NCBI GenBank assembly: GCA_904501925.1
Contig: CAJGCO010000001.1
Coordinates: 58,485-122,484, forward strand
Length of the DNA: 64,000 nucleotides
Reading direction: 5' to 3'
Source of the DNA: an uncultured Alphaproteobacteria bacterium
GTDB lineage: Bacteria > Pseudomonadota > Alphaproteobacteria > RF32 > CAG-239
Position 1 is the first letter of the stretch; every line of letters starts with the position of its first letter. Under the pieces are notes generated by a model. That model did no database searches and had not been told where the DNA came from. It saw nothing but the letters and a program-made list of their open reading frames with translations. Positions 2 to 30,835 of this stretch are shown here, piece after piece. The translations under genes and the position numbers were made by a program.

Positions 2-121
2 ATATTCTTTACATTTATGATGGGACATTTTGCATCTGGCTTGATAATATATTGGACATTGAGCAATATATTATCTATCATTCAACAAAAAGCTATTATG
101 AAAAAAAATGGAGTTAAATAA
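2..121 (+). CDS. yidC: YidC membrane insertase, C-terminal end only (gene begins upstream of the window)
   Basis: Frame 2 reads [39 protein letters not shown]. The GLxxYW..SN..S..QQ tail is typical of YidC/Oxa1. The TAA stop at 119-121 overlaps the next ATG (TAATG). Confidence 0.7.
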
Positions 122-762
122 TGGATAACAACATTCAAGAACAAGAAGCAATCCGATTGAAAGCTGGTGTTGAGCTTTTTAACAAACGCTGTGATTTTGT
201 ATTAAGTGTAGCGAATCTAAATCAACTACCACATGATGACAGAGTTGAAATCGCTTTTGCTGGTCGTTCGAATGTTGGTAAATCAAGTCTTATAAATGCT
301 CTGTTTGGGCAAAAGAAATTAGCAAAAACATCTGCTACGCCAGGAAGAACTCAACAATTAAATTATTTCAACTTAAATGACAAGTTATATGTTGTTGACC
401 TTCCTGGGTATGGATTTGCTAAAGCACCAAAAGATATTGTAAAAAGCTGGCAAAAATTAATTAACACTTATTTGGTTGGAAGAGCTAGTTTGAGAAGAGT
501 TTTTCTTTTAATTGATTCTAGACATGGTGTTAAAAAAATTGATGAAGAGATAATGGATATGTTAGATAAAGCTGCTGTAACATATCAAATTGTATTAACT
601 AAGATTGATAAAATTTCAGAGAGTGCATTAAATAGAGTATTAGACGAGACTAAAAAGGTTGTCGATAAACATACTGCGGCACATATTAACATTCTTAAGA
701 CAAGTTCTGAAAAGAATCTTTATTTAGATTATTTAAAAGCTGAAGTGGCTGAATTGCTTTAG
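121..762 (+). CDS. engB: Ribosome-biogenesis GTPase EngB/YihA/YsxC
   Basis: G1 motif GRSNVGKSSLINAL, DLPGYG (G3) and LTKIDK (G4). The 213-aa size fits the family. Confidence 0.9.
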   Translation: MDNNIQEQEAIRLKAGVELFNKRCDFVLSVANLNQLPHDDRVEIAFAGRSNVGKSSLINALFGQKKLAKTSATPGRTQQLNYFNLNDKLYVVDLPGYGFAKAPKDIVKSWQKLINTYLVGRASLRRVFLLIDSRHGVKKIDEEIMDMLDKAAVTYQIVLTKIDKISESALNRVLDETKKVVDKHTAAHINILKTSSEKNLYLDYLKAEVAELL

Positions 763-1754
763 GTTATCGCTGTTACGCCTCTTATATTACCATCACGAAC
801 AATTTGTACAACGTGAAGTTTTCTACGCATTTCTTCCATTGTTTTTTCTACATTAATATGTGGAGATTGCTCCATAATACATTTAATAAATGCTTCATAT
901 GCGGCTTCTGGACTTTCTGCGTGAATTGTAGCCATGCAGTTATCGTGACCTGACCCCATAAGAGCCCAGATTGCTGCTGCGTTTTTATTTGAAATCTCAC
1001 CACCGATAATAGCATCTGGCGTTATACGTTTAATTAGGTCAATAGCATCAGCATCACTCATACCTTCGGTATCTTTATTTTTACTTCCTTTTACACGGGA
1101 TAAAACAATATGAACTCTATTTGGATGAGGAACTTTCAGCTCTCTTGTATCTTCTAGTGTAACAACTCTTTTGTGAATATCTAAAACCTTAAGTAAATTA
1201 TTTAAGAATGTTGTCTTACCTGTACCTGTACCACCACTAACTAAAACATGGTCTCCTCTTCTTATTGCTAATAATAAGCGCTCATAAGCGTCTGATGGGG
1301 TATCAATAAATTTTAATGGATTTATTTCTTTTAACTCTTCACCTTGAGTTAAGCCATAATCACCAAAACCAAAAGCAACATCATCCGAATACAAACGAAT
1401 ACTTAATGCTACACCATCTTTGTCATCAAAATTATAGCGAATATTTCTTCCTGCAACGCCTGTAAAACGATGTCCACCAGGGATATCTGTATATACTGTT
1501 GGAACGCCTCCAACTGTGTGTGGATCAAACTCTTGATCATTTAGATTAGCGATTATGTACAACAAATTTACTAAATATTCTTTATTTAATTTAGGATCTT
1601 TATGCATAACCCAAGGATGCGCCCTTTTTCCACGTAAACGCAACCAAATTTCACCAGGATTATTTATAGCAACCTCTTCTATGTTCTCTTGTTCATACCA
1701 ATATGTAAGAGGTCTTAAAACAGAGGTAAGTACATTATCATCTTGCGTAGCCAT
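759..1754 (-). CDS. virB11: T4SS ATPase VirB11
   Basis: Walker A GGTGTGKTT, TLEDTRELK, GGEIS (Walker B region) and a His box ATIHA. It is the last gene of the virB8-B11 block. Its stop overlaps the engB stop convergently. Confidence 0.9.
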   Translation of the reverse strand: MATQDDNVLTSVLRPLTYWYEQENIEEVAINNPGEIWLRLRGKRAHPWVMHKDPKLNKEYLVNLLYIIANLNDQEFDPHTVGGVPTVYTDIPGGHRFTGVAGRNIRYNFDDKDGVALSIRLYSDDVAFGFGDYGLTQGEELKEINPLKFIDTPSDAYERLLLAIRRGDHVLVSGGTGTGKTTFLNNLLKVLDIHKRVVTLEDTRELKVPHPNRVHIVLSRVKGSKNKDTEGMSDADAIDLIKRITPDAIIGGEISNKNAAAIWALMGSGHDNCMATIHAESPEAAYEAFIKCIMEQSPHINVEKTMEEMRRKLHVVQIVRDGNIRGVTAIT

Positions 1755-1838: not shown

Positions 1839-4800
1839 CTAAATAGATAAATCCATTTCGCTTAAATCATCCTCATCATCTATTTGCATTATTTCTGATC
1901 CATCAGCTGATGGTGGTGGTAATCCTCCAGTGTATGCATTTTGTTTTTGTTCTGAGTATTGAGCTGGCTCACCATCCATTAATGATGGAGCTGGTTCATT
2001 ATTATTTACTGCTTGTTGATTTTGTCCGTTACCATTGGATACAGCTTCTGCTGTCTCTGGCTCACCATCCATAAGAACATTTTTAGCAACACCGCCACCA
2101 ATACTTTGCGCTCCTTCTTTTACATCCTTGGTTGTTCTTAACCACAAATCAGCCATTGGATAAATTATAATTCTTGTACCTGCTGGAACATATGTTACAG
2201 GTTCGATTAATTTCTTGCTTTCAATAATCTCATTTAATATTTCATCCATACGCTCTAAGAAATTTGTACGCGCATCAGTTGCTGCTTGCTGTTTTGAGGT
2301 TTCTACTTGAGAATTTGCTGCGGCATCTTCATTGGCTGCCATCATATATGAAATAGCTGAAGTTGCTACAGTACCAACTAAAGGTAAACCATATTTTTTA
2401 GTTAGTTGCTCATCAACATAACCTAAAGCACCACCGCCACGACCTTGAGCATCACCTGTTTGTGCTGAAGATATATCAAACGCTATTCCATCTGGACGAA
2501 TTATTCTTTCCCATTTGATTTCAATTTTTACACCACCACTAGTGCTATCAAATCTTTCATCTGTACCAAAATCTTGCAGACCACCTATGATACGACTACC
2601 AGCTGGAATAATTACATTACGCCCACTATCACCATATATATTTCGTTCTACAATTGCCGTTGCAGGTGCACCACCTAAAGATATTAAAGATCTTGCCATA
2701 ACTGCTGGAATTGGTTTATCTGCTGTCACAACATTACTCATATCAACTCGTAATGTTGATATAATTTTGTTTGGTGCAACAGAACCCCAATCATCTTGCC
2801 AACCTGTATACGCTTTAAAATCGCCACCAGAAGAAATAACTCCACCTGATAAAACATCTCTTCTCATTTTAAATTTTGCATCTAACATCTGAGCTCTTAA
2901 TGGATTATAGCGTCCACCAGGGCCTATTCCACCACCAGGGCCAACATTTGTAGCGTCAGGAGTTGGTGCATATGGAGTTGTGATTACATTTTGTGTTATT
3001 TGATTAAAATTTTTATCTATTTCTTGATTATCTAACTTATCTTGGACACGCTGATATTCACCAATTTCATTGCCGTTTTCATCAAAAACAGTTCCATTTT
3101 CATCAACTTCTCCTATAGTCTGACCAGATTGATCTATTACCTTACCAGTATTAGTGATATCTCCTATATAATTACCACCTGGAGTTATTGCGATACCTAT
3201 AATTTGATGATTTGCATGACTTTTTTTACCTTTATGGTTAGAAGCGCCCTTATCAACTGTTATATTTTCGCCAATATCTTCTATCTTTTCTTTATTTTCT
3301 TTATTTTCTATTTTGGTTTCTTGAGGTGTTTTCTCTTTTTTTTCTTTGGTTGTTATTATATTTTCCTCTTCTAACTTTTCTTCTTTTGGTTCTTTTTCAT
3401 CATTCTTGATTTCTTCTTTTTTTACATCAAATTCTTCTTTTGATGCTGGCTCATTATCTTGTTCTAAATTTTCACTTTCAGCTATATCTGGTGAGATATC
3501 TTGATTATCTGGCTGAGCAGGTACACGATAATATTGAAGAGGATCTGCTTGAGCTAAAACTGTATCATCAGAATTAACAACATTTCCGTCTTGACTTAAT
3601 TGACCTACTTTTATGTTTTTAGTATTTACAACACTTCCATCAAAATTTAAATAACCAATAACTTCTTTGTTATTATTTCTGATATAATAATCTCTTGAAC
3701 CTCTAGCGATAAGTTCTTTCTTTTTATTTAACACAAACCCTTCATAAATAGAACCAATCATCTCGCCCATTATACTATAAACATCACCATTTTTTGAAAT
3801 ATATCCAACAGTATTGTGGTCATTATCATATACGTATAAATCAAATAACGCGTATCCAGAACTTCCATCTGTTTTAACTACTTTACCATTATGTTGAACT
3901 TTACCTAAAATAGCTCCATTATCTGATAAAACATTACCATTAATATCAACACGTCCTAAATAAATATTATTATCATCAAAAGCGATTGTATACTTAAATA
4001 GAACACCTAAATTGCTTGATCCTTTTGATGAAATATTTCCATTTGTATTTATTCTTGCAACTTCTATGCCTTGGTTATCGATAACGCTTCCTGATATGTT
4101 TGTATATCCTATTATTTTATCATCAAAACCCATTATTGATGCTATAGTTATTTTTTGACCAACAATCTCTTTTTGAGAATTACGAATAAGGCCTAGAGTA
4201 TCTTGGCAACCTATTTTTTTATTTTGATAATCCAATGCAACACCTAAAGAGTTTTGAACACCAATTACATCGCCTTTTTCGCCAACAACAACACTAGGCT
4301 CCACAACATAACCTATAACTTCTTGGCTATCATTTAATACTTGATTATTTGCTAATACTGTACCGATATAAGCGCCTGAATAATTTCTTGCTTCACCTCT
4401 TTGTGATATGATACCTATATACTCACAATTTTTATTGATTACTACACCTTGAGGAGCACTCGCACCTAGTATTGCACCAGTATTATCTAAAGCATATTTA
4501 TCTGATGCTATCTTTCCTATTATTGAATTATCTTTTATAATGGAACCATCAATTAATATATTACCAATATAATCACCATTTATGCTTACGCTACTAATAG
4601 AGCTTAAAGCGTTCTGATTGCTATTTATTGTATTTGTGTTATAATTTGCAATATAACCTAATGGTAACACTTTACCGAAAATATTATTTTTACTTATAAC
4701 TAAATTTGTAGGATTTATATCTCCAATTTTTTTACCAAGTATATCTGTTAAAAAAACTTCTCCAATATTTTTTCCTAATATTTTATTATTTTTATCCCAT

Positions 4801-6248
4801 AAAATGCCTATACTATTTAGCTTTGAGATATCATTAATAGAATTATTATCACTATTTCCTGATGTTGTCATATAGGATAAAAATGTTCCACTATTAGTGT
4901 ATAAACCGGACAACAAGTAGTTATTTCCAACTACTTTATCTGTATTAAACACGTATCCATTAGGGCTAATTACATATAATTCATCTCCAATATTTAATTT
5001 ACTTGAGATACCATTTATACCTAAAAAATTGTTATTATTATCGTATATTAACCTTGTTTGTAGAACTTCACCAATATATTTTCCTGATTTGTCATATCCT
5101 TTATTTTTAAGCATTGCGCCTCTTTCTAAACCATCTAAAGATATAACTCGACCATCTATGCCTGCTAGTGCTATGTTTTCACCTAAATAATCAAACAAAG
5201 GACCTGTGTGATTTACATAACCTATAACGTCTCCCCTTGCATTAATAGCATTTCCTGAGATACCTATTTTACCAATTTCTTCTCTTGCTTTAACTACTTT
5301 TCCATTTGGCATTAAACGTCCAAGATATTTTCCATCTATTGTATTGAATGTTGCTGATATTGGTATACTATATCCTATTTGTTTTCCATTAGCATCTATT
5401 ATGCGTGCTCCATTTACAGCAATAGCTACAATCTTCTTTTTGTTTATTACATCACCATTATAGCTAATATGACCTAAATATTTACCATTATAATCAAACG
5501 CATATCCTCGATTAACTGCACTACCTACAACCTGCATTTTTTTATCGTAAACATAACCATTGGCATGAATATTTCCTATTGTTACATTTTTAGAATCTAT
5601 TACTTTTCCATCTGAGGCTACACCACCTAAAAACTTACCTTTTGAAGATACTATAAACTTTGAAGAAACTATTTTACCTGATAGGACAGGTTTTTTACTA
5701 TTTAACTCAAAAGTATAAACCTCACCTGTCGATGTTACAAAACCATTATTTCTACCTTGTAAATCATAAAAATAACCATCGCCAGATACTCGACCTATTA
5801 CAGTTCCTTTATCTGTATATACTAAGTTATCTCCAGAAACTACTGAACCTAAAACATCGTAATTATCATTTACAACAAGTCCACTTGGTAATACTTTTCC
5901 AACCAAGCTATTTGTCATTGATACAACAGATCCATCATTATTAACTTTACCAAGTACTGTATTTTTATTAGATATTACTACACCTTGAGGAACAACACCA
6001 CCGATTAACTCATCTTTACCATCAAAAACATACCCATCTGGGGTTATATACCCAATTAATTCATTATTAAAGTTTATAACATTACCATCAGGCACAACCT
6101 TTCCTATTAGGTCTCCATTAAAATCGATAGCGCTAATATCTGATGCTTGGGATTGCAAACTAAAGCTTAATAAAAACATTAAACTCAATATCATCCCATT
6201 TATTTTTGATATAGACTTTAACAACTTAATTCCTCCGATTTTGAGCAA
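1839..6248 (-). CDS. virB10: Giant VirB10/TrbI-family protein (up to 1469 aa): signal-anchor, about 860 aa repeat region, E/K-rich spacer, VirB10 core, C-terminal extension
   Basis: The core at about nt 2120-2790 reads ISTLRVDMSNVVTADKPIPAVMARSLIS..IIPAGSRIIGG..GVKIEIKWERIIRPDG..VTYVPAGTRIIIYPMADLWL, which is TrbI/VirB10-like. The track start at 6248 is a TTG. A GGAGGA at 6231-6236 favours the in-frame TTG at 6224, with an ATG at 6194 as the alternative. The N-terminus LKSISKINGMILSLMFLLSFSLQSQA looks like a signal or anchor. Confidence 0.85.
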   Translation of the reverse strand: MLKIGGIKLLKSISKINGMILSLMFLLSFSLQSQASDISAIDFNGDLIGKVVPDGNVINFNNELIGYITPDGYVFDGKDELIGGVVPQGVVISNKNTVLGKVNNDGSVVSMTNSLVGKVLPSGLVVNDNYDVLGSVVSGDNLVYTDKGTVIGRVSGDGYFYDLQGRNNGFVTSTGEVYTFELNSKKPVLSGKIVSSKFIVSSKGKFLGGVASDGKVIDSKNVTIGNIHANGYVYDKKMQVVGSAVNRGYAFDYNGKYLGHISYNGDVINKKKIVAIAVNGARIIDANGKQIGYSIPISATFNTIDGKYLGRLMPNGKVVKAREEIGKIGISGNAINARGDVIGYVNHTGPLFDYLGENIALAGIDGRVISLDGLERGAMLKNKGYDKSGKYIGEVLQTRLIYDNNNNFLGINGISSKLNIGDELYVISPNGYVFNTDKVVGNNYLLSGLYTNSGTFLSYMTTSGNSDNNSINDISKLNSIGILWDKNNKILGKNIGEVFLTDILGKKIGDINPTNLVISKNNIFGKVLPLGYIANYNTNTINSNQNALSSISSVSINGDYIGNILIDGSIIKDNSIIGKIASDKYALDNTGAILGASAPQGVVINKNCEYIGIISQRGEARNYSGAYIGTVLANNQVLNDSQEVIGYVVEPSVVVGEKGDVIGVQNSLGVALDYQNKKIGCQDTLGLIRNSQKEIVGQKITIASIMGFDDKIIGYTNISGSVIDNQGIEVARINTNGNISSKGSSNLGVLFKYTIAFDDNNIYLGRVDINGNVLSDNGAILGKVQHNGKVVKTDGSSGYALFDLYVYDNDHNTVGYISKNGDVYSIMGEMIGSIYEGFVLNKKKELIARGSRDYYIRNNNKEVIGYLNFDGSVVNTKNIKVGQLSQDGNVVNSDDTVLAQADPLQYYRVPAQPDNQDISPDIAESENLEQDNEPASKEEFDVKKEEIKNDEKEPKEEKLEEENIITTKEKKEKTPQETKIENKENKEKIEDIGENITVDKGASNHKGKKSHANHQIIGIAITPGGNYIGDITNTGKVIDQSGQTIGEVDENGTVFDENGNEIGEYQRVQDKLDNQEIDKNFNQITQNVITTPYAPTPDATNVGPGGGIGPGGRYNPLRAQMLDAKFKMRRDVLSGGVISSGGDFKAYTGWQDDWGSVAPNKIISTLRVDMSNVVTADKPIPAVMARSLISLGGAPATAIVERNIYGDSGRNVIIPAGSRIIGGLQDFGTDERFDSTSGGVKIEIKWERIIRPDGIAFDISSAQTGDAQGRGGGALGYVDEQLTKKYGLPLVGTVATSAISYMMAANEDAAANSQVETSKQQAATDARTNFLERMDEILNEIIESKKLIEPVTYVPAGTRIIIYPMADLWLRTTKDVKEGAQSIGGGVAKNVLMDGEPETAEAVSNGNGQNQQAVNNNEPAPSLMDGEPAQYSEQKQNAYTGGLPPPSADGSEIMQIDDEDDLSEMDLSI
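3545..6128 (-). repeat. Coding array of 10-11 aa G-x-(V/I)-x-x-(D/N)-G-x-(V/I) hairpin-like units inside virB10. It is a more degenerate version of the repeat in the adjacent giant ORF.
   Basis: Translation example: DLIGKVVPDGNVINFNNELIGYITPDGYVFDGKDELIGGVVPQGVVISNKNTVLGKVNNDGSVV, continuing to about aa 900. Four to five more units lie at about nt 3050-3215, after the E/K-rich spacer (about 3250-3520). Confidence 0.8.
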
Positions 6249-9200
6249 CTTCTTCTAGCACATATCCTGAAACTTTATTTTTTGTGTTTACATATGCACC
6301 ATTACTCTTTAGATAACCTATTTTGCCATTAGTAATACTTAGAACTTCACCTGTTGGAGATACTCGTCCAGAATACTTACCGTCATTGCTTAGTATATTA
6401 GCACCTATTTTATATGTATGTCCTATAATTTTTCCGTTATTATCAACAACTAAATTTGAAGATATTAGTTTTCCAATAATATTTTTATCATTATCTGTTA
6501 ATTTTCCTTCGCTATTAACATATCCAACGACTTTGTCTGATGTATTAACTACGATACCATCATCAATAAGTTCGCCAATAAGATTTCCTTTACTATCAAT
6601 TACTTTTGATGTATTTAATACTTTTCCAATTATTTCTTTGTTTTTAGAAATAACTCGTCCACTTGCATCAACAACACCAATTATACTTCCTGAAAAATCA
6701 ACAACAGTACCTCTTTTTAGTAAACTATAATTTTTATTTGAGCTACCACCTGGTAGAATTGTTGTTTCAACCTTATTTTCATCGTTTATTACATCGCCTA
6801 GAGAATTAACATAACCTTTTACATCTCCAAGAGTATCAATAACAAAATCCTCTTTTATTACTTCTCCGATTATTTTTTTGTTTAAATTTAATATATGGCC
6901 ATCAGAACTAACTATACCACTGATTTGACCATCAACATCTATAACTTTTCCTGATTTTGTTACATATCCTAAATAAGAACCGTCATACCCCATTCCAATA
7001 CCTGTTTTTACAACACTACCTTTGTAAAGACCTTTTTCATCAAACATTTGACCTAAAGCATCAATATGGCCTTTTATGTTACCCTTATAATCAATAACAT
7101 CTCCGTTATCATTTACAAAACCAATATAATCACCATAAAAGTCTACTACATTTCCTTTAGGGAGAATGTTACCTACTTTATTGGAATAAAAACCATTTAT
7201 ACCATATGATATTTTATCAACGGCTGCACCCTTTGAATTATATATATATCCGTCATAGAATAATCGACCTATGATATTACCATTTGCACCGATTACTGAT
7301 GTTTTTTCATTAAATAAATGAGCTACAATTTCTTTTTTGTTATTTACAATATAATCATTTAGCATAATTGTTGTGTTTGGCATTATACTTTGACTATCAT
7401 ATCCATAAGGAGATATATCTCCAAGATATTGTCCGTTATTATCAAATAATTGTTTTTTATCAATAACTTTACCAATAACAAATCCATCTATATTTGTAAC
7501 TTCTCCATCTATATTTGCACATCCGATTGTTTGCATTCCTGATTTGATTTTTCCATCACTACCAATAACACCTAAATTATCACCATTATAGTAAAGTGCA
7601 AATGATGGCTCATAAACGCGCCCAATTAATTCGCCTTTAGCATTAAGAACTTTTCCTTCTGGGTTTACGCATCCTACTCTTTGTCCGGCGCTATTAATAA
7701 CAAATCCATCACTTTTTGCTTGTCCAATTAGGTTACATTTATTATCTCTAACTGGCCCCATTAGAGCAACATCACCAACATATCGCCCTTTTTCATCAAC
7801 AATACTTCTATCAAAAAGCATTCTATATTGAGTGTCTTTACCATCTTTCTTGACTTTACCGTCTTTATCTACATATCCGAGATTTCTGCATCCCCAACTA
7901 ACGGCTAAACCACCCATAACGGCTTTTCCAATTATTACATTATTTTCTTTTGCTTTAATTAAATTATTTGGTAAAACTTGGCCTATTACTTCTTGTTTGG
8001 CATTTACTATTTCACCTTTGTTATTTATTGCACCAAGAGAGTATCCTGCAGGTGAAATTGCTATTAAATCCTTATTTACAACAGCGCCAATTTTTATACC
8101 CTTACTTGAGATTACATTACCATTTTCATCGATAAAACCGATGGAAATTCCATCAAAATTATATACCTTACCATTACTTGCAATGTATCCGATAACATTA
8201 CCATTCGCATCAACTGCAAGATTGGAATATCCACCAACAAGACCTTTTATATTACCTTTTGAATCTACTACAAATTCCATAATATCACCGGCTTTACCAA
8301 TAATATTACCATTTGCATCAACAATATTACCATTTTTATCTAATTTTCCAATGATATTACCATTGAAATCTCTAGCTATTCCATTTTCATCAATGTAACC
8401 AATTACGTTACCATTTGCATCTAATACTGCACGTCTTTTGGCTATATTTAGATCACCACTTGTTTTAGGTGAAACTCTACCAATTATTTCACCATTTACA
8501 CCTATAACATTACCGTTTTCATCAACTATGCCAATAATTTCACCATTTTTACCAATAACCTGACCTAGCTCATTAACATACCCTATAACATTACCATTTT
8601 CATCAAGAGCTACGGTTTGATAATCTCCGGCATAGCCGATTACATTTCCGTTTACATCGTGAATTACACCGTCTTCACCTAAATAACCGATTAAATTTCC
8701 TTCAAAATCCATTACGTTACCATTTTCATCAACGTAACCAATAACATTACCATCTTTATCATACGCTAGACGACGTGTTTCTTTTGCACTTCCAATTTTC
8801 TCGCCAGTTAAACCTATAATATTACCATTTTCGTCAACATATCCTATTAATTTACCATCTTGCGAATAAACTTTACCATCGTCATCAATATATCCTATTA
8901 CATTGCCATCTTTATCTAATGCTAAAGTTTTGGCTTCGCCTACTTTACCGATAACTTTACCATTTTTATCTGTTATTGTTCCGTCTGGATTAACTTGACC
9001 AATTACATTGCCATTAAAGTCATACACCTTTCCATCTTCGCCAACATAACCTATAACATTACCATTTTCATCATATGCAAGCCTTGCTTTCTTTCCGGCA
9101 GTTCCAATGATTTCATCTGTTTTACTGATAACATTTCCATTTTCATCAACAAACCCTATCTCTTCACCTTTTAGGTTTCTTACTATTCCGTTTTCATCAA

Positions 9201-12200
9201 CAAAACCTATAACATTACCATTTTCATCATAAACAAGATTTCTTGATTCACCTGCTTTACCAATAATATTGCCGTTTTTATCAACAATATTTCCATTTTC
9301 ATCAACTTTACCGATTATATTACCATTAGCATCTATTACATTGCCATTTTCATCTATGTAACCGATGACATTACCATCTTTATCATAGGCAATTCGAGCT
9401 GTTTTACAAGACGAACAAATTTTTTCGCCAACAGCAAATACTTCTTTTTTATTTGATATATGCCCGATAATTTTTCCATCTTTATTATAGGCGATTAAAC
9501 CATCTTTAGTATAACCAATATTTTCATTTATGTTATTTCTGATTGTTTTTCCATCTTGATCTAACTTACCTATCACATTGATTTTAGCAGATAAAACATT
9601 ACCTTTATCATCTAACACTCCTTTAACTTGTTTGTTTTGAGCATATACAATTTTATTATCAAAAACATATCCAATAACAGTGTTATCTTTATTTTGTGCA
9701 ACATTTGTTTCATAACCAATTTTTCCAATTAGATTGCCTCGTTTATCAATAACTTTATTTTTGTTATTAGTTCCAATTTCTTTTCCATTAAAGTTTTTTA
9801 CAATATTCTTTTTATCTAGATAACCAATCACATTGTTATTTTCATCAAGTGCTAGTTTTTTCTTAACGCAAGTTTTACCTAGTATTTTTTCACCTGATTT
9901 GATTATATTACCATTTGCATCAACATAACCTATAATTTTTCCAGTATGATCTCTAACTAGGCCATTTTCATCGATATAGCCAATTACGTTTCCATCTTTG
10001 TCTAGTGCTACTTTTTGAATATCGCCTGCTTTACCGATAACATTACCATTTTTATCTACAATGGTACCATCTGCTAGCATTTTACCGATTAAATTACCAT
10101 TAAAATCTTTTACCAAACCATTTTCATCAATATAACCAATTACATTACCATCTTTATCGTATGCTAAGCGACGTGTTGGTGCGGCCTTTCCTATAATTTC
10201 ACCACTTGTTCCAATAACATTACCTTGCTCGTCTACTATTCCAATAACTTTACCATTGGCGTCTATTACTTGTCCTTTTTCATTAACGTATCCGATAATA
10301 TTACCATTTTCATCAACGGCTAACATTCCGTAATCACCGGCTTTACCAATAATTTTTCCACTAGCATCTACAATATTACCATCTTTATCAACTTTACCGA
10401 TAACATTACCATTAAAGTCTTTAACAGTACCATCTTCATCTATATACCCGATTACATTACCATCTTTATCGTATGCTAAACGACGTGATAAATTAGCTTT
10501 TCCTAAAATTTTTCCATCTGTTCCAATAATATTACCATTTTCATCTACATAGCCTTTTATTTGACCATCTTTACCAATTATTCTACCTTTTTCATCTACA
10601 TACCCCATTACATTACCATCTTTATCAAATGCTAATGTTGCGTAGTCGCCAGCTTTTCCAATAATGTTACCATTTTTATCTATAATATTACCATCTTTAT
10701 CAACTTTACCTATTATATTACCTTCAAAATCAATAACATTACCATTTTCATCTATATAACCAATTGGTTTACCATCTTTTCCAAGAGCTAAACGGCGTTG
10801 TTGGGTTGTTGGTTCACCTGAAGTACTTACTATGTTTCCATTTTCATCAACTACGCCTATTTGTTTACCATTTTTATCAAAAACACGACCATTTTCATCT
10901 ATGTAACCAATTACATTTCCATCTTTATCTAATGCAAGTTTTCCATAAGCTCCAGCTTTACCAATAATATTGCCGTTTTTATCAACAATATTACCGTCTT
11001 TATCAACTTTACCTATTATGTTTCCATCAAAATCAATAACGTTACCATCTTTATCTACATAACCTATTACATTACCATCTTTATCGTATGCTAAACGACG
11101 AGATGCGCCTACTTTACCAATAATTTCTTTATCTTTTTCTAAATCATCAAATTTTACAATTTTTCCATTTTCATCAATATAGCCAATTGCCTTGCCATTT
11201 TCATCATATACAAGTTTTCGGCTATCACCATTGGAACCTATTTTTTCATTTGATGTTCTGTAAACATTGCCGTTCTCGTCAACATAACCGATAATATTAC
11301 CATCCTTATCAACGACACTATTATCAGGCATAACAACACCTATAACGTTACCATTTTCATCGACAACGACGTTACCTGAAGAGGTTACTCTTCCTATTAT
11401 ATTACCATTTGCATCAACAACTTCACCATTAGCATTAAGACGGCCAATAACTTTTTTGCTATCATTTATATCAACAACTGTACCATCTGGCAAAACACGA
11501 CCAATTATTCTACCGTTTTCATCATACACAAATCCAGCTTCAACAACATTTCCTATAACATTACCATCTTTATCGACTATCGTACCATCGGGAAGTGCTC
11601 GACCAATAACCTCGCCTTTAGAATTAACAACAGTTCCATCTGCTTGGACGTAACCAATGAAATTGCCATCTTTATCATAAGCTAAACGTAAATTTTGTGC
11701 TACACCAATGATTTCGCCGTTTTCATTTACAATCATACCATTTTCATCTACTCGGCCAATTATATTACCATTTTCATCAAATACTAAGCCGTTTTCATCA
11801 ATATAACCGATAATTTCGCCATTAGGACCAATAGCTAAACGACGAGATGAAGAGCCACCAGTTACATCAATAGAACAATCTTTTGAACCAGAACATTTTG
11901 ATGCAGCATCTTCTGGATATACAGCACTTCCCCTGATGCTTATAACTTTTGACTTGGCACTAGATTTATCTAATCTTGTTTCATACCAAGTTATCTTAAA
12001 GTTGTTTTGCATATTACCAGGTAGGTGTGGTGTCCAGCTTATTTCTATTTCGCAACTTTCGTCTCCTCGCAAATCGCGATTTTTACATTTATTTCTAAAA
12101 TCAAAACCATCTTCGGTTTCAGCAACTAATTCTACTTTATCTATGTGTATACTCTCAGAACCATCTGTGCTTATTGTTATAATACTTTGATTAATAGCAT

Positions 12201-12498
12201 CTACACCCAATGTAAATGTTCTCATATTTACTTCTTCTGGTGTTACAACGATGAGTTCTTTTCGATCTGTTATTAAACTATCTTCAGGAGTGATTTCAAC
12301 ATCACTTTCATTGTATATATTAGGAACAATGCTTTGATTTTCAACAAATTCAGGTTCTTCACTTTCTGGATCTTGTACCTCGTTGTTGATTGATATTACT
12401 AATAAGCCAAATAGGAATAATACAAATGCTATTATTCCCATAATGACAAATATCATACGTGTCTTTTTTTCATATTCCTCAAAACGCGTTTCGCTCAT
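6226..12498 (-). CDS. Giant (2090 aa) membrane-anchored repeat protein of unknown function, encoded between virB9 and virB10
   Basis: A single uninterrupted ORF. Its ATG overlaps the virB9 stop (ATGA at 12495-12498). Its stop at 6226-6228 lies between the virB10 RBS (GGAGGA) and the candidate TTG start at 6224. It has an N-terminal TM helix (MIFVIMGIIAFVLFLFGLLVISI), then an Ig-like-looking segment (aa about 85-195, with Cys residues), then repeats to the C-terminus. Confidence 0.85.
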   Translation of the reverse strand: MSETRFEEYEKKTRMIFVIMGIIAFVLFLFGLLVISINNEVQDPESEEPEFVENQSIVPNIYNESDVEITPEDSLITDRKELIVVTPEEVNMRTFTLGVDAINQSIITISTDGSESIHIDKVELVAETEDGFDFRNKCKNRDLRGDESCEIEISWTPHLPGNMQNNFKITWYETRLDKSSAKSKVISIRGSAVYPEDAASKCSGSKDCSIDVTGGSSSRRLAIGPNGEIIGYIDENGLVFDENGNIIGRVDENGMIVNENGEIIGVAQNLRLAYDKDGNFIGYVQADGTVVNSKGEVIGRALPDGTIVDKDGNVIGNVVEAGFVYDENGRIIGRVLPDGTVVDINDSKKVIGRLNANGEVVDANGNIIGRVTSSGNVVVDENGNVIGVVMPDNSVVDKDGNIIGYVDENGNVYRTSNEKIGSNGDSRKLVYDENGKAIGYIDENGKIVKFDDLEKDKEIIGKVGASRRLAYDKDGNVIGYVDKDGNVIDFDGNIIGKVDKDGNIVDKNGNIIGKAGAYGKLALDKDGNVIGYIDENGRVFDKNGKQIGVVDENGNIVSTSGEPTTQQRRLALGKDGKPIGYIDENGNVIDFEGNIIGKVDKDGNIIDKNGNIIGKAGDYATLAFDKDGNVMGYVDEKGRIIGKDGQIKGYVDENGNIIGTDGKILGKANLSRRLAYDKDGNVIGYIDEDGTVKDFNGNVIGKVDKDGNIVDASGKIIGKAGDYGMLAVDENGNIIGYVNEKGQVIDANGKVIGIVDEQGNVIGTSGEIIGKAAPTRRLAYDKDGNVIGYIDENGLVKDFNGNLIGKMLADGTIVDKNGNVIGKAGDIQKVALDKDGNVIGYIDENGLVRDHTGKIIGYVDANGNIIKSGEKILGKTCVKKKLALDENNNVIGYLDKKNIVKNFNGKEIGTNNKNKVIDKRGNLIGKIGYETNVAQNKDNTVIGYVFDNKIVYAQNKQVKGVLDDKGNVLSAKINVIGKLDQDGKTIRNNINENIGYTKDGLIAYNKDGKIIGHISNKKEVFAVGEKICSSCKTARIAYDKDGNVIGYIDENGNVIDANGNIIGKVDENGNIVDKNGNIIGKAGESRNLVYDENGNVIGFVDENGIVRNLKGEEIGFVDENGNVISKTDEIIGTAGKKARLAYDENGNVIGYVGEDGKVYDFNGNVIGQVNPDGTITDKNGKVIGKVGEAKTLALDKDGNVIGYIDDDGKVYSQDGKLIGYVDENGNIIGLTGEKIGSAKETRRLAYDKDGNVIGYVDENGNVMDFEGNLIGYLGEDGVIHDVNGNVIGYAGDYQTVALDENGNVIGYVNELGQVIGKNGEIIGIVDENGNVIGVNGEIIGRVSPKTSGDLNIAKRRAVLDANGNVIGYIDENGIARDFNGNIIGKLDKNGNIVDANGNIIGKAGDIMEFVVDSKGNIKGLVGGYSNLAVDANGNVIGYIASNGKVYNFDGISIGFIDENGNVISSKGIKIGAVVNKDLIAISPAGYSLGAINNKGEIVNAKQEVIGQVLPNNLIKAKENNVIIGKAVMGGLAVSWGCRNLGYVDKDGKVKKDGKDTQYRMLFDRSIVDEKGRYVGDVALMGPVRDNKCNLIGQAKSDGFVINSAGQRVGCVNPEGKVLNAKGELIGRVYEPSFALYYNGDNLGVIGSDGKIKSGMQTIGCANIDGEVTNIDGFVIGKVIDKKQLFDNNGQYLGDISPYGYDSQSIMPNTTIMLNDYIVNNKKEIVAHLFNEKTSVIGANGNIIGRLFYDGYIYNSKGAAVDKISYGINGFYSNKVGNILPKGNVVDFYGDYIGFVNDNGDVIDYKGNIKGHIDALGQMFDEKGLYKGSVVKTGIGMGYDGSYLGYVTKSGKVIDVDGQISGIVSSDGHILNLNKKIIGEVIKEDFVIDTLGDVKGYVNSLGDVINDENKVETTILPGGSSNKNYSLLKRGTVVDFSGSIIGVVDASGRVISKNKEIIGKVLNTSKVIDSKGNLIGELIDDGIVVNTSDKVVGYVNSEGKLTDNDKNIIGKLISSNLVVDNNGKIIGHTYKIGANILSNDGKYSGRVSPTGEVLSITNGKIGYLKSNGAYVNTKNKVSGYVLEEVAQNRRN
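6229..11847 (-). repeat. Coding array, roughly 150-180 units by eye, of a 10-11 aa motif (D/N)-x-(D/N)-G-x-(I/V)-(I/L)-G-x-(V/I)
   Basis: Example: RRLAYDKDGNVIGYVDKDGNVIDFDGNIIGKVDKDGNIVDKNGNIIGKAG. The array runs from RRLAIGPNGEIIGYIDENG (aa about 219) to the stop. The C-terminal half is more degenerate. Confidence 0.85.
8400..11110 (-). repeat. Higher-order tandem super-repeat of about 305-315 bp (about 100-105 aa, about 9 short units each), 9-10 copies
   Basis: The (R/K)RLAYDKDGNVIGY landmark recurs on the DNA near 11095, 10790, 10480, 10165, 9860, 9385, 9075, 8770 and 8440. Copies share long near-identical stretches such as attaccatctttatcgtatgctaaacgacg. Confidence 0.7.
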
Positions 12499-14351
12499 CG
12501 TATCCTAACCACACTACAAATAATACCATTTACCCCTAATTGACTACATATTCTATCTCCGTCTTCTATTGTACGAATTGGGCCTACTCTTAAATGAAAC
12601 ACCTCTCTACCTTGACCATCAGCAGGTGTGTCTACAGAATAGAATGGTTCATATTTTCCTATAACTGCAGGATAGTTTTTAGAGATATCAGACCATAATC
12701 TCTCTAAATTATTTATATTTTGATCAGTACCTAACTCTATTGATATTGAACTATTATCTTGAACTGATTGTTTTACTTTGTTTTGTTTAAAAGATGATAA
12801 TATATCTCTTGTTTTTGGTGTCATTAGTATATCATCATCAGGTATTGTATTATTTTGTATTGTGTTTTTGTTTGTTAAATTAGATGAATTAATGTTTTCA
12901 ACTTCATGATTTATAATATCTGCTCCATTTTTTACATCATCTTGAAGACTTTCTATACTTTCTGAAGATGTGTATTCTGGAACTATGATTACTCCATCTC
13001 CAACATTTAATTTAACTTGTTCTACAGGGGCTTTTTCTGGACTGATTGATTCACCTACAATTGGAACAACCTTTGGAATATCATTCACATTGGGAACATT
13101 TTTAGTTATTTTGCTATATTCCTCCAATATTTCTTCAACATTCTTCATTTCATTGCTGTCATTTTTCTTATTTTTATTATCTTTTTTGAAAAAGGAATCG
13201 AACCAACCTTCTTCTTCCTCTGTATCTGCTACACCTTCTGAATAATAAACATCATTTATATCTTTTTCAGAGATGTTTTCATTAGATGTTTTTTCGTTTG
13301 TATCTCTTTGAGAGGCGTATCTATTTTGTACATCCCATTCATTACTTGGAGCATAAACAGCATTTTCTAAACCATCTGTGTCTGCTCTGCGTAATTTTAA
13401 GCAAACCATACGTTTTCCTGAACGTAATACCATATCACCCATTCCCTCAACAATAATCAATCTATTGTTTGGGCCAGCTGCTCTAAAACCAACTGGGGTT
13501 TCTGAACGTTCTACAATTAGAGTAACAATAGGACGTTGAACTGCTGTTAGTGATTTTTCTCCTAAATCAATATATGTAAATATATTATCACGCCATACAC
13601 GCTCTGGAGCAATAATAATATCATCTGGATTTGGAACATATACTTCAATATCAAATCTAAATTGTGTTGGGTCTACTGGTATCTTTTGTATCCAATCTTC
13701 CTTTTGCAAATTACTTGTGTATGTCATTGCTCCACTATTTGTAGAACCACCATTTCCACCTTGATAGCCTGAAGATAAATTATTACCTGATGCGCCACCC
13801 TTGTTATTTTCTAATACTTCAATATCGATAATTGCATTGGTAATTCTATCTGTGTTAAATGTTTCACTTTGCATATAAAATACATACTTATTGCCTGAAC
13901 GACCAAAAACAATCATATTAGTATCTACACCAACAAAACTAGACGCATTTGGATATACTAAAAGGCTAGTTGGACCATTAATTTCTGCTTGAAAAGACTT
14001 TGTATCACCGATGTAAACATTTTCGATTATTTCCCAATTTGGAAAATTAATAAGTGTATACATACCTTCACGCACTCTTAATGGTAAAACTAAATCAGGT
14101 GTCCAATAATATTTAGTATAGCCAGGACGAGTTTGACCTTCACCCATATGTTGAAGAGGATCTTTCCACGCACTTTGTATCATACCTAAAGATCCACCAC
14201 CACCTAAGTAATTTAGGTTTGTAGATGCATAATTGCCTTGACTTTGGTCAGCACTCTGATCAAGTGTATCTTTGGTTACTTGAGCATTTACGGCAGTAGC
14301 AACCACTGACATAAGTAAAACAACTGATAGTATTTTATACATTTTAATCAT
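12495..14351 (-). CDS. virB9: VirB9/TrbG/CagX-family outer-membrane core protein (618 aa) with a long low-complexity linker and a C-terminal SPOR-like domain
   Basis: Signal peptide MIKMYKILSVVLLMSVVATAVNA. The VirB9-like N- and C-domains include YYWTPDLVLPLRVREGMYTLINFP, MIVFGRSGNKYVFYM, RFDIEVYV and PIVTLIVERSETPVGFR..MVLRSGKRMVCLKLRR. The last 84 aa (nt 12498-12749) read SISIELGTDQNINNLERLWSDISKNYPAVIGKYEPFYSVDTPADGQGREVFHLRVGPIRTIEDGDRICSQLGVNGIICSVVRIR, which fits the SPOR pattern. Confidence 0.85.
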   Translation of the reverse strand: MIKMYKILSVVLLMSVVATAVNAQVTKDTLDQSADQSQGNYASTNLNYLGGGGSLGMIQSAWKDPLQHMGEGQTRPGYTKYYWTPDLVLPLRVREGMYTLINFPNWEIIENVYIGDTKSFQAEINGPTSLLVYPNASSFVGVDTNMIVFGRSGNKYVFYMQSETFNTDRITNAIIDIEVLENNKGGASGNNLSSGYQGGNGGSTNSGAMTYTSNLQKEDWIQKIPVDPTQFRFDIEVYVPNPDDIIIAPERVWRDNIFTYIDLGEKSLTAVQRPIVTLIVERSETPVGFRAAGPNNRLIIVEGMGDMVLRSGKRMVCLKLRRADTDGLENAVYAPSNEWDVQNRYASQRDTNEKTSNENISEKDINDVYYSEGVADTEEEEGWFDSFFKKDNKNKKNDSNEMKNVEEILEEYSKITKNVPNVNDIPKVVPIVGESISPEKAPVEQVKLNVGDGVIIVPEYTSSESIESLQDDVKNGADIINHEVENINSSNLTNKNTIQNNTIPDDDILMTPKTRDILSSFKQNKVKQSVQDNSSISIELGTDQNINNLERLWSDISKNYPAVIGKYEPFYSVDTPADGQGREVFHLRVGPIRTIEDGDRICSQLGVNGIICSVVRIR

Positions 14352-15143: not shown

Positions 15144-15332
15144 TTAAACAGATGCATTAAACCAATCTGGCAATGTCTTAGGTAATTCTACTTCAATACA
15201 TGCACAAGGTGAAAGTTTTAATTCATATACGTCTTTACCTACGCCAACTGGCTCTGGCTCATAGTAGCTACCCAACATGTTACAAGCAGCCAAAACAGCT
15301 ATTATCATAAATAGAAATATCTTTTTTAACAT
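15144..15332 (-). CDS. virB7: Small lipoprotein in the VirB7 position
   Basis: 62 aa with a lipobox (AVLAAC). It sits between two virB8 paralogs, as RvhB7 does in Rickettsiales. There is no family-specific sequence motif beyond size, lipobox and position. Confidence 0.55.
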   Translation of the reverse strand: MLKKIFLFMIIAVLAACNMLGSYYEPEPVGVGKDVYELKLSPCACIEVELPKTLPDWFNASV

Positions 15333-22997: not shown

Positions 22998-23000
22998 AAT

Positions 23001-25899: not shown

Positions 25900-25929
25900 A
25901 CTACATAATACTATATATCATATACTAAA

Positions 25930-29989: not shown

Positions 29990-30358
29990 CTATCCTCTAC
30001 ATAAACTACTACTACAAACAGCACCTTTATAAGTATCTTTAAACTTGCTCTCTAAGTTCATTTGACTATCACCTGTAACATAATCAATTAGAGAACCTAC
30101 ACCTGACATAAAAAACAAGCTTATTGCTATGTAAGAAAGGTGCTTAAAGTTTATTTTTCCTCCGATTGCTAAAAAAGTAAACATCACGATACCAAAACTT
30201 GAGATTACATATGCAAATGTACGTAACCCTACAGCAAATTCAATTGTTTTACCAGAAAGAAGATCAAAGATATTACCAGCATAAGCCTCTGAGCATACAC
30301 ATAAAGATAAAATCAATACATTTACTATTAATGTAGATATTTTCCTAAATATTCTCAT
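29990..30358 (-). CDS. virB2: VirB2/TrbC-like pilin paralog 4
   Basis: Signal peptide plus two TM helices. It aligns by eye to paralogs 1 and 2: GGKINFKHL versus FGKVKWTWF, and LIDYVTGDS versus IINYATGDS. The C-terminal tail is Cys-rich. Confidence 0.65.
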   Translation of the reverse strand: MRIFRKISTLIVNVLILSLCVCSEAYAGNIFDLLSGKTIEFAVGLRTFAYVISSFGIVMFTFLAIGGKINFKHLSYIAISLFFMSGVGSLIDYVTGDSQMNLESKFKDTYKGAVCSSSLCRG

Positions 30359-30368
30359 AGCACCCTCC

Positions 30369-30816: not shown

Positions 30817-30835
30817 TTATTATTTATTAGTAAAC

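What the first reader, a model, noticed from the sequence alone, without database searches (positions are those of the whole stretch)
1839..6248. VirB10 is enlarged to about 1460 aa by the same repeat type, a DotG-like architecture in a type IVA system
The VirB10/TrbI core (about nt 2120-2790) is preceded by a signal-anchor, about 860 aa of G-x-V-x-x-D/N-G hairpin-like units and an E/K-rich spacer of about 100 aa. Four to five further units follow the spacer. Canonical VirB10 has only a short Pro-rich linker that spans the periplasm. The known precedent for a repeat-expanded VirB10 homolog is DotG/IcmE of type IVB systems, which carries pentapeptide-type repeats. Here a different repeat is used, and it is shared with the neighbouring 2090-aa gene. 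That implies domain exchange between the two genes and probably a physical association between the proteins.
Basis: partly seen in the sequence, partly recalled or inferred. Interest (0 to 1): 0.8.

Follow-up and report, generated by a model that had tools for sequence, protein, structure and literature searches.

The report
Split, repeat-expanded VirB10 secretion protein
The giant VirB10 gene is real, but it is only the outer half of an even larger type IV secretion protein that gut Alphaproteobacteria have split into two adjacent genes, so a subunit that normally bridges both membranes as one chain is made here in two pieces.

Summary
One intact ORF (nt 1839-6224, minus strand, 1461 aa) joins about 870 aa of 17-residue beta-hairpin repeats, a 106-aa charged disordered spacer, three more hairpins and a canonical VirB10/TrbI core. 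The repeats belong to a known type (Pfam beta-flower/DUF3659, YD-like) and are shared with the upstream 2090-aa gene.

The interpretation needs revision. The N-terminus is a cleavable Sec signal peptide, not an anchor: 69 of 69 relatives have small residues at -3/-1. The 2090-aa neighbour carries the cytoplasmic tail, membrane helix and first periplasmic domain that single-gene VirB10s have at their N-terminus (hhalign 98.5%, E 2e-15). Related lineages encode one 1930-2406-aa VirB10 directly between virB9 and virB11. In the core tree the two-gene form nests inside these.

The two genes are therefore halves of one repeat-expanded VirB10 that split once. That explains the shared repeats. A test for recent exchange between the genes was negative.

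The junction is conserved in 69 loci: GGAGG inside the last codons, a stop, 1-4 nt, then a start. At least 146 species-level genomes, all uncultured gut or rumen Alphaproteobacteria, encode a relative. I found no published description.

The parts
1839..6224 (-). VirB10-C gene: the C-terminal, outer-membrane half of a split VirB10 (1461 aa, TTG start, stop at 1839-1841)
   Evidence: The ORF is intact. The start was placed from the SD and stop geometry, which is conserved in 69 loci. More than 100 clusters of 1380-1770 aa share the same architecture.
6232..6236 (-). GGAGG Shine-Dalgarno for VirB10-C, inside the last Arg-Arg codons of the upstream gene. TAA at 6226-6228, one nt, then TTG at 6222-6224.
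   Evidence: The sequence reads CGGAGGAATTAAGTTG. An SD-like GGAG/AGGA, then a stop, 1-4 nt and a start, is present in 69/69 related loci.
6144..6224 (-). Predicted cleavable Sec signal peptide (LLKSISKINGMILSLMFLLSFSLQSQA | SD)
   Evidence: It has an n-h-c layout. In 69 relatives the -3/-1 residues are AxA 43, VxA 14, AxS 5 and other small pairs 7, and the uncharged run is 8-18 aa. Cleavage itself is inferred.
3528..6143 (-). Array of about 50 beta-hairpins with a 17-aa period (consensus x-I-G-x-V-x-P-D/N-G-x-V-I/V-N/D-x-N/K-G-x), ending in the conserved PLQYY
   Evidence: Pfam Bflower_2 E 2e-43. Lag-17 autocorrelation. AF2 pLDDT 92.2, pTM 0.89, 101 strands of mean length 4.4, modal hairpin spacing 17. 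Positions are conserved across 73 homologues.
3210..3527 (-). Charged spacer (106 aa, 40% E+K); hypervariable across the family
   Evidence: AF2 pLDDT is about 33. In relatives it is 37-201 aa and is charged low-complexity sequence, Ala/Glu/Lys-rich sequence, or 3-9 regular YD-like hairpins.
3045..3209 (-). Three conserved hairpins after the spacer (IIGIAITPGGNYIGD...ENGNEIG)
   Evidence: AF2 gives six strands at pLDDT 84-91. The GIA[LI]TPGG motif is conserved across the family.
2730..3044 (-). Linker with the invariant Gly-rich motif NVGPGGGxGPGGRYNPxRA
   Evidence: Invariant columns in alignments A1 and A2.
2139..2729 (-). VirB10/TrbI beta-barrel core. The helix-loop-helix antenna lies at about nt 2208-2426.
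   Evidence: Pfam TrbI E 7e-27. PDB ComB10 2bhv E 4.5e-17 and TrwE 7o3j. NCBIfam ComB10 and VirB10 domain hits. AF2 gives two long helices at fragment residues 397-431 and 439-469.
1842..2138 (-). Low-complexity C-terminal tail ending in the conserved PPP(S/A)ADG...acidic...(L)F/I
   Evidence: Alignment A1. AF2 predicts disorder.
6226..12498 (-). VirB10-N gene (the '2090-aa neighbour'): a cytoplasmic tail with an EYxKKxR motif, a TM helix (nt 12388-12456), an Ig-like gN domain (nt 11914-12279), about 110 hairpins with a 52/104-aa super-repeat, and an invariant C-terminus GYxLxEVAxNRRN
   Evidence: Pfam Bflower_2 E 1e-141 and TIGR01643 YD repeat E 1e-29. The N-terminus is homologous to the N-terminus of single-gene VirB10s: BLASTP E 8e-11, HMM 33-102 bits in 17/17, hhalign 98.5% against canonical-size VirB10s. 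C-terminal conservation.
12495..14351 (-). VirB9 (618 aa, enlarged, weak C-terminal SPOR match), directly upstream
   Evidence: Pfam CagX E 3e-15 and SPOR E 0.0025. It is syntenic in all loci.
759..1754 (-). VirB11 ATPase, directly downstream
   Evidence: Pfam T2SSE. It is syntenic in all loci.

Best explanation
ORF 1839-6224 encodes the outer half of a VirB10 that first grew by beta-hairpin (beta-flower/YD-like) repeats and then split into two translationally coupled genes. The upstream 2090-aa gene keeps the ancestral N-terminus: a short cytoplasmic tail, the inner-membrane helix, an Ig-like periplasmic domain and about 110 hairpins. The downstream gene gained a Sec signal peptide. After export and cleavage it would consist of a rigid array of about 50 hairpins, a flexible charged tether, three more hairpins and the canonical TrbI barrel with its antenna. 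The barrel would sit with VirB9 and VirB7 in the outer-membrane core complex.

Shown here: the anatomy, the homology of each half, the nesting of the two-gene form inside single-gene forms, and the conserved junction. Inferred: signal-peptide cleavage, a periplasmic location for both arrays, and that the two halves re-associate non-covalently to restore the bridge from inner to outer membrane that VirB10 normally provides as one chain. The most probable contact is between the near-invariant C-terminus of the N-half and the most conserved first ~100 residues of the C-half. The arrays would then build an enlarged periplasmic scaffold, in the way the repeat regions of DotG and CagY are proposed to form a collar.
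For: - The ORF is intact, and repeats and core lie in one ORF in all 69 loci where it was recognised.
- The core is a VirB10: TrbI Pfam E 7e-27 and ComB10 in the PDB at E 4.5e-17.
- 69/69 relatives have the -3/-1 pattern of a signal peptide.
- Three sister loci carry one 1930-2363-aa VirB10 directly between virB9 and virB11, with no extra gene.
- All 17 single-gene long VirB10s begin with a tail, a TM helix and a domain that matches the neighbour's N-terminus at 33-102 bits. BLASTP gives E 8e-11.
- The same domain occurs in canonical-size VirB10s, for example in Microvirga: hhalign probability 98.5%, E 2e-15.
- In the NJ tree of the core the split class is monophyletic in 84/100 bootstraps, the split plus single-gene classes together in 93/100, and the single-gene class alone in only 3/100.
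- The junction (GGAGG, stop, 1-4 nt, start) is conserved in 69/69 loci. The gap varies from 1 to 4 nt in most loci, so the reading frames differ between lineages.
- The two array segments flanking the junction are among the most conserved parts of each array.
- AF2 models the array at pLDDT 92 and pTM 0.89, and the spacer as disordered.
- At least 146 species-level genomes encode a relative.
Against: - No interaction between the two halves was computed or measured.
- Signal-peptide cleavage is judged from sequence rules, not from a dedicated predictor or an experiment.
- The fission point cannot be mapped onto single-gene relatives, because repeats make the alignment register ambiguous.
- The tree is neighbour-joining on 215 columns, and support for the exact sister group is low (12/100).
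- The three-dimensional shape of the array is unknown.
- No VirD4 coupling protein lies in the window, so the system's substrate is unknown.
Confidence: 0.7

Rival explanations
1. The ORF is a complete, self-sufficient VirB10 anchored in the inner membrane by an uncleaved signal-anchor. The 2090-aa neighbour is a separate accessory protein that shares repeats with it through domain exchange.
For: There is a hydrophobic N-terminal segment. The repeats of the two genes are significantly similar. In some relatives the spacer holds regular repeats like those of the neighbour.
Against: The hydrophobic core is only 8-18 residues and is followed by AxA-type sites in 69/69 relatives. The neighbour's N-terminus is homologous to VirB10 N-termini. 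Single-gene forms exist. The own neighbour is never the best match of the spacer repeats; it ranks 2-55 of 66.
Confidence: 0.12
2. The genes did arise by fission, but the halves no longer work together. VirB10-C acts as an outer-membrane core subunit with no link to the inner membrane. The N-half has taken on another role, for example an inner-membrane-anchored periplasmic scaffold, a peptidoglycan spacer, or an exported or surface adhesin.
For: The N-half varies widely in length, 1107-3153 aa. A flexible spacer decouples the array from the core. The enlarged VirB9 with a SPOR-like end suggests a remodelled envelope complex.
Against: Adjacency and translational coupling are strict in 69/69 loci. 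The C-terminus of the N-half is near-invariant and the N-terminus of the C-half is strongly conserved. The cytoplasmic tail motif is retained.
Confidence: 0.17
3. The split is an assembly or sequencing artefact, or a pseudogene-like frameshift, in a single 3550-aa gene.
For: The two ORFs are adjacent, 1 nt apart and in different frames.
Against: The same junction occurs in 69 independent genomes, with 1-4 nt gaps in most, an embedded SD, and a full signal peptide at the start of the second ORF.
Confidence: 0.01

Closest known systems
Canonical VirB10/TrbI (A. tumefaciens VirB10, R388 TrwE, H. pylori ComB10)
   Same: The C-terminal TrbI beta-barrel with a helix-loop-helix antenna. The position between virB9 and virB11. 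A VirB-type operon with VirB2, B4, B7, B8, B9 and B11.
   Different: There is no TM anchor and no Pro-rich linker in this polypeptide. Instead it has a signal peptide and about 870 aa of beta-hairpins. The anchor is on a separate gene product. The two products total about 3550 aa, against 380-600 aa for a canonical VirB10. NCBIfam scores (105 and 83 bits) fall below the equivalog cut-offs of 300 and 220.
DotG/IcmE (type IVB Dot/Icm)
   Same: A VirB10-family core preceded by a long repeat region of variable copy number. That region is proposed to form a periplasmic collar and to reach the inner membrane (bioRxiv 10.1101/2023.03.22.533729).
   Different: DotG repeats are 10-residue [KR]xAG[FY]... 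units of pentapeptide type, not 17-residue hairpins. DotG is a single polypeptide that the cited model has penetrating the inner membrane. Its gene context is dot/icm, not virB.
CagY (H. pylori Cag, type IVA)
   Same: A type IVA VirB10 homologue expanded to about 1900 aa by repeats, with a variable repeat module that tolerates gain and loss of units (PMC2581425). The hypervariable spacer here is a loose parallel.
   Different: CagY repeats are alpha-helical, whereas these are all-beta. CagY is one polypeptide. CagY variation occurs within a species, whereas the variation seen here is between species.
Beta-flower (PF21784/PF21785) and DUF3659 repeats; YD/Rhs repeats
   Same: The sequence models match: Bflower_2 at 147 bits in VirB10-C and 463 bits in the neighbour, and YD repeat E 1e-29 in the neighbour. 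The [DNEQ]xxG hairpin tip is present (PMC10584680). Foldseek's best local matches are Rhs and teneurin YD shells.
   Different: Described beta-flowers are small closed barrels of 8-12 strands. Here about 100 strands form one confidently packed array. There is no Rhs cocoon (TM 0.09), and no toxin or protease end was seen. The 17-aa period appears shorter than that of classical YD repeats.
Rickettsiales vir homologue (rvh) T4SS
   Same: A chromosomal system with no adjacent relaxase, duplicated VirB8 flanking a VirB7 lipoprotein, and several VirB2 copies (PMC2653234).
   Different: From my own knowledge of the family, rvh VirB10 is of ordinary size and is not split. The relationship to rvh was not tested phylogenetically here.

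Membership tests
VirB10/TrbI | C-terminal TrbI beta-barrel domain | tested here: met
   Pfam PF03743 at 94.8 bits against a cut-off of 35. PDB ComB10 E 4.5e-17 and TrwE E 2.8e-5.
VirB10/TrbI | Helix-loop-helix antenna inside the barrel domain | tested here: inconclusive
   AF2 shows two long helices (fragment residues 397-431 and 439-469), but the local pLDDT is only about 45-75. The HMMER alignment to ComB10 spans this region.
VirB10/TrbI | N-terminal cytoplasmic tail and inner-membrane helix in the same polypeptide | tested here: not met
   The N-terminus is a signal peptide with AxA-type sites in 69/69 relatives. The tail and TM helix are on the upstream gene product.
VirB10/TrbI | Pro-rich periplasmic linker | tested here: not met
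   It is replaced by an 872-aa hairpin array and a charged spacer that is 6% Pro.
VirB10/TrbI | Gene position between virB9 and virB11 | tested here: met
   the N-half gene lies between virB9 and this ORF.
VirB10/TrbI (NCBIfam equivalogs ComB10, VirB10) | Score above the curated equivalog cut-off | tested here: not met
   105.3 bits against 300, and 83.3 bits against 220. It is a member at domain level only.
DotG/IcmE | 10-residue pentapeptide-type repeats and a dot/icm (type IVB) gene context | tested here: not met
   The period is 17 and the structure is beta-hairpin. The operon is virB-like. The DotG repeat definition is taken from bioRxiv 10.1101/2023.03.22.533729.
CagY | Alpha-helical repeat modules | tested here: not met
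   The array is all-beta in AF2. The CagY repeat structure is taken from PMC2581425.
Beta-flower (Pfam clan CL0395) | Match to PF21784/PF21785 above the gathering score | tested here: met
   Bflower_2 at 147.3 bits against 38, and Bflower at 42.5 bits against 25.
Beta-flower (Pfam clan CL0395) | Closed shallow barrel of 8, 10 or 12 strands with 4-, 5- or 6-fold symmetry | not testable with these tools
Only a continuous run of 101 strands with pTM 0.89 is known.
Beta-flower (Pfam clan CL0395) | [DNEQ]xxG at the hairpin tip | tested here: met
   The unit consensus has P/x-D/N-G and N/K-G turns. The motif definition is from PMC10584680.
YD/Rhs repeat proteins | Match to the YD-repeat models (TIGR01643, PF05593) | tested here: inconclusive
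   Met by the upstream N-half (E 1e-29 and E 9e-32). Not met by VirB10-C itself, which has no hit.
YD/Rhs repeat proteins | Hollow cocoon shell fold | tested here: not met
   Foldseek against RhsA, teneurin and Tc toxins gives E down to 4e-24 but TM 0.06-0.10 and rmsd about 29 A.

The most novel reading that the evidence does not exclude
This would be a natural two-piece VirB10. The inner-membrane, energy-sensing half and the outer-membrane pore half would be separate polypeptides of 2090 and 1461 aa. They would be held together only by docking of their beta-hairpin arrays, which together (about 160 hairpins per pair of protomers) would build a new kind of rigid all-beta periplasmic conduit or collar. 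That would show that covalent continuity from inner to outer membrane is not needed for VirB10 function. It would also define a new structural class of T4SS core, conserved across an entire order of uncultured gut Alphaproteobacteria.
Probability: 0.3. Interest if true: 0.85.

Novelty: new variant of a known kind. Interest (0 to 1): 0.72.

Why it matters
VirB10 is the one T4SS subunit thought to span both membranes as a single chain. It is thought to pass ATP-driven conformational signals from the inner-membrane ATPases to the outer-membrane pore. A lineage in which that chain has been split, and has stayed split in at least 69 sequenced genomes with tight translational coupling, offers a natural test of whether covalent continuity is required.

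It also adds a third and structurally different solution to repeat expansion of VirB10: 17-residue beta-hairpins, next to the DotG repeats and the alpha-helical repeats of CagY. It gives the recently named beta-flower/DUF3659 repeat its first clear cellular context, as a structural element of a secretion machine.

The carriers are common but uncultured Alphaproteobacteria of human, mouse and ruminant guts. Their conserved chromosomal T4SS has not been described in the literature I could search.

Tried and rejected
- A 15-residue unit HMM built from strictly selected repeats of the neighbour was too low in information to count units in VirB10-C: 5 hits of at least 3 bits. I used the Pfam, BLASTP, autocorrelation and AF2 strand counts instead.
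- The first bootstrap run timed out. I repeated it with a faster distance routine.
- Mapping the fission point onto single-gene relatives failed. BLASTP gives many equally good registers within the repeats.
- The test for intragenomic exchange was negative: the own neighbour is never the best match of the spacer repeats.
- Foldseek of the array against the PDB gave only local Rhs, teneurin and propeller matches, with TM about 0.1 or lower for the best-ranked hits, so no global analogue was found.
- AF2 of the spacer-plus-core fragment had low overall confidence (pLDDT 53). I did not use it for a fold search, and drew only on its disorder, hairpin and helix pattern.
- Sequence search of the PDB found nothing for the repeats.
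- Literature searches found no description of this system. The queries were VirB10+DUF3659, RF32+type IV secretion, YD repeat+VirB10, and VirB10+fission+signal peptide.
- Rfam found nothing in the window.
- tblastn of the Microvirga VirB10 against plasmids showed that only one other Microvirga plasmid shares its N-terminal domain.
- The artefact reading (a frameshift in one gene) was rejected on conservation of the junction.

Full report
**What is in the sequence**

The minus strand of the window carries a VirB-type type IV secretion operon. In order it holds:
- three VirB2/TrbC paralogues and VirB4, then several secreted proteins with no family match;
- VirB8, a 62-aa lipoprotein (VirB7-like, nt 15144-15332) and a second VirB8;
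- a 618-aa VirB9 and a 2090-aa repeat protein (nt 6226-12498);
- the ORF of the finding, then VirB11.

The ORF is open from nt 6248 to 1839 (1469 codons). The start that is probably used is the TTG at nt 6224. The sequence there reads CGG AGG AAT TAA G TTG, so a GGAGG lies 7 nt upstream and the stop of the upstream gene lies one nucleotide before the start. This gives 1461 aa, the length of the identical database entry P0001.

**Anatomy of the protein**

All coordinates were checked.

| Part | nt (minus strand) | Main evidence |
|---|---|---|
| 27-residue n-h-c signal sequence ending SQA\|SD | 6144-6224 | |
| 872-aa hairpin array | 3528-6143 | |
| 106-aa spacer, 40% Glu+Lys | 3210-3527 | |
| Three further hairpins | 3045-3209 | |
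| Linker with invariant NVGPGGGxGPGGRYNP | 2730-3044 | |
| TrbI domain | 2139-2729 | |
| Low-complexity tail | 1842-2138 | |

- **Array.** It has a 17-residue period: identity at lag 17 is 0.18 against a mean of 0.08.
- **Array model.** With an alignment of 73 homologues, AlphaFold2 models it at mean pLDDT 92.2 and pTM 0.89. The model has 101 short strands of mean length 4.4 residues, and the modal hairpin spacing is 17.
- **Spacer.** AlphaFold2 leaves it disordered, with pLDDT about 33.
- **Post-spacer hairpins.** These are modelled at pLDDT 84-91.
- **Core.** Pfam TrbI scores E 7e-27. The best solved relative is ComB10 (2bhv, E 4.5e-17), followed by TrwE. Two long helices sit where the VirB10 antenna is expected.

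**The repeat is a known type**

The array matches Pfam Bflower_2 (147 bits against a gathering score of 38), Bflower and DUF3659. The neighbour matches the same families far more strongly (463 bits), and also matches RHS/YD-repeat models: PF05593 at E 9e-32 and TIGR01643 at E 1e-29. The beta-flower families were defined in 2023 from AlphaFold models as small closed barrels of 8-12 short strands with a [DNEQ]xxG hairpin tip (PMC10584680).

The two proteins align with E 6e-59 under composition-adjusted BLASTP. Their 17-residue unit profiles align in register, with hhalign score 28 against 5 for a reversed control.

A Foldseek search of the array model against the PDB ranks Rhs effectors, teneurin YD shells and Tc toxins first, with E down to 4e-24. 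TM-scores for these are only 0.06-0.10. The hairpins are locally Rhs-like, but the overall shape is not a cocoon, and no solved structure resembles it globally. I could not read the model's coordinates, so I do not know whether it is a chain of closed flowers or one continuous ribbon.

**The family**

A search of 5.8 billion proteins found more than 100 clusters of 1380-1770 aa with the same Bflower-plus-TrbI architecture. The closest is 87% identical, and the next group about 50%.

A scan of one genome per GTDB species found 146 genomes that encode a relative, of which 79 loci were fetched. All are metagenome-assembled genomes from human, mouse, deer, buffalo and other guts or rumens. They are labelled Alphaproteobacteria bacterium, Acetobacter sp., Azospirillum sp. 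or Rickettsiales bacterium.

The order VirB8-VirB9-giant repeat protein-VirB10-VirB11 holds in every locus with enough flank. The giant protein ranges from 1107 to 3153 aa and VirB10 from about 1380 to 1590 aa. Repeats and core lie in one ORF in all 69 loci where the VirB10 ORF was recognised by its motifs. In the closer clade the operon is followed by engB, yidC, rnpA, rpmH, dnaN and dnaA, so it is chromosomal and lies near the replication origin. This excludes a hidden frameshift between repeats and core.

**The N-terminus is a signal peptide**

In 69 VirB10 ORFs from these loci, the residues at -3/-1 before the conserved mature start (x-[DE]-I-[ST]-A-I-D-F-N-G) are AxA in 43, VxA in 14, AxS in 5 and other small pairs in 7. 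The uncharged core is 8-18 residues long and is preceded by Lys/Arg. This is the signature of signal peptidase I substrates, not of a 20-residue membrane anchor. Cleavage is inferred and has not been shown.

**The neighbour is the missing N-terminal half of VirB10**

A full HMMER scan with the core alone returned a second class of relatives of 1930-2406 aa, plus one of 1498 aa. These are also Bflower plus TrbI. In three of their loci the order is VirB8, a small ORF, VirB8, VirB9, VirB10 (1930-2363 aa), VirB11, with no extra gene.

All 17 of these single-gene proteins begin with a cytoplasmic tail carrying an S-E-Q-Y-x-K-K-S-N-R-like motif, one membrane helix, and a domain of about 120 residues. 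A profile built from the N-termini of the giant neighbours matches that domain at 33-102 bits. The window's giant against P0154 gives BLASTP E 8e-11.

The same domain is present after the membrane helix of a subset of canonical-size VirB10s (560-660 aa). One example is WP_152714064 of Microvirga tunisiensis. Profile-profile comparison gives probability 98.5% and E 2e-15 over 120 columns.

In a neighbour-joining tree of the core, the canonical-size proteins form the outgroup, the single-gene long proteins form a grade, and the signal-peptide-bearing proteins form a nested clade. Bootstrap support out of 100 replicates:

| Grouping | Support |
|---|---|
| Two-gene clade monophyletic | 84 |
| Long forms together (single-gene plus two-gene) | 93 |
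| Single-gene class alone monophyletic | 3 |

The simplest history is in three steps. A VirB10 with a tail, membrane helix, Ig-like domain and core first expanded by hairpin repeats. It then split once within the array. The downstream piece acquired a signal peptide.

**The junction**

In 69 of 69 loci the upstream gene ends ...G-Y-x-L-x-E-V-A-x-N-R-R-N. The two Arg codons (CGG AGG) form a GGAGG. The stop is followed in most loci by 1-4 nt and then TTG, GTG or ATG. Because the gap length varies, the reading-frame relation differs among lineages. The ORFs are therefore truly separate and translationally coupled, not a frameshifted single gene.

The last 20 residues of the N-half (mean identity 0.69) and residues 31-120 of VirB10-C (0.60-0.70) are among the most conserved parts of the two arrays. 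Part of the C-terminal conservation must reflect the embedded ribosome-binding site.

**Exchange between the genes**

The spacer of VirB10-C is hypervariable across the family, at 37-201 aa. Depending on the lineage it is charged low-complexity sequence, Ala/Glu/Lys-rich sequence, or 3-9 regular YD-like hairpins. If these repeats were being copied from the adjacent gene, each genome's own neighbour should be their best match. It never is: it ranks 2-55 of 66. Shared ancestry explains the shared repeat type, and I found no sign of recent exchange.

**How it most likely works**

Shown: the anatomy, the homologies, the phylogenetic nesting and the conserved coupling.

Inferred: VirB10-C is exported by Sec and cleaved. 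Its barrel joins VirB9 and VirB7 in the outer-membrane complex. Its rigid array hangs from the barrel on a flexible tether in the periplasm. The N-half sits in the inner membrane with its tail in the cytoplasm and its own array in the periplasm. The two halves then re-associate, probably through the conserved ends that were once contiguous. This would restore the bridge between the membranes and build an enlarged periplasmic scaffold.

That scaffold would be comparable to the collar proposed for the repeat regions of DotG and CagY (bioRxiv 10.1101/2023.03.22.533729). I put the fission history at about 0.85 and the re-association model at about 0.55.

The main rival accepts the fission but holds that the halves now act independently.

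**Comparison with known systems**

The protein is a member of the VirB10/TrbI family at the level of the core domain and by gene position. It lacks two features that define a canonical VirB10 polypeptide, the membrane anchor and the Pro-rich linker, and it scores below NCBIfam's equivalog cut-offs.

It resembles DotG in having a repeat region before the core, but it is not DotG: the repeat and the gene context differ. I know of no VirB10 split into two genes, and four literature searches found none.

**Verdict**

The feature is real and conserved, and it is a new variant of a known machine. The proposed explanation for the shared repeats should be replaced by gene fission.

Noticed in passing
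window 16247-27105 (-): Five ORFs of 1815, 444, 228, 745 and 391 aa each begin with a signal peptide. At least four of them then share a motif right after the predicted cleavage site (A|F/V-x-P-V/I-x-D, e.g. HA|FVWPVIDAV and KA|FWPVFDMGEIV) followed by coiled-coil-like sequence. They look like a set of VirB5/TrbJ-like paralogues of very different size. None has a meaningful Pfam or NCBIfam match, and no recognisable VirB6 was found.
   Followed up: partly
window 12495-14351 (-): VirB9 is 618 aa, about twice the canonical size, and has a weak C-terminal SPOR (peptidoglycan-binding) match at E 0.0025. Relatives range from 520 to 760 aa, so the whole outer-membrane complex appears enlarged.
   Followed up: partly
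window 15144-15332 (-): A 62-aa ORF with a lipobox (LAAC) lies between the two VirB8 genes and is a likely VirB7. Single-gene relatives have a 58-65-aa ORF at the same place.
   Followed up: partly
window 29990-31826 (-): Three tandem VirB2/TrbC pilin paralogues lie here, plus a 122-aa two-TM ORF (29990-30358) with no family match.
   Followed up: no
window 33505-43328: A second envelope machine sits next to the T4SS. It is a type IVb-pilus/T2SS-like cluster (TcpQ, secretin, PilO-like, T2SSE ATPase, T2SSF) on the plus strand, with a PilT-like ATPase on the minus strand.
   Followed up: no
window 121-762 (+) and loci L001/L002: No VirD4 coupling protein follows VirB11. The operon ends at engB, and in relatives it is followed by yidC, rnpA, rpmH, dnaN and dnaA. 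It is therefore a chromosomal system close to the replication origin, with no relaxase nearby.
   Followed up: partly
P0084 versus P0105 (homologues; variable region before the core): Two near-identical VirB10-C proteins (1711 and 1569 aa) differ by a tandem duplication of about 140 aa in the variable region between the array and the core. This suggests ongoing gain and loss of repeat units there.
   Followed up: no
window 6226-12498 (-), about aa 230-1500: The N-half has a very regular 52/104-aa super-repeat made of three or six 17-aa hairpins (identity at lag 52 is 0.31). Its last ~590 aa are degenerate, like the VirB10-C array. Its length varies from 1107 to 3153 aa between species.
   Followed up: partly
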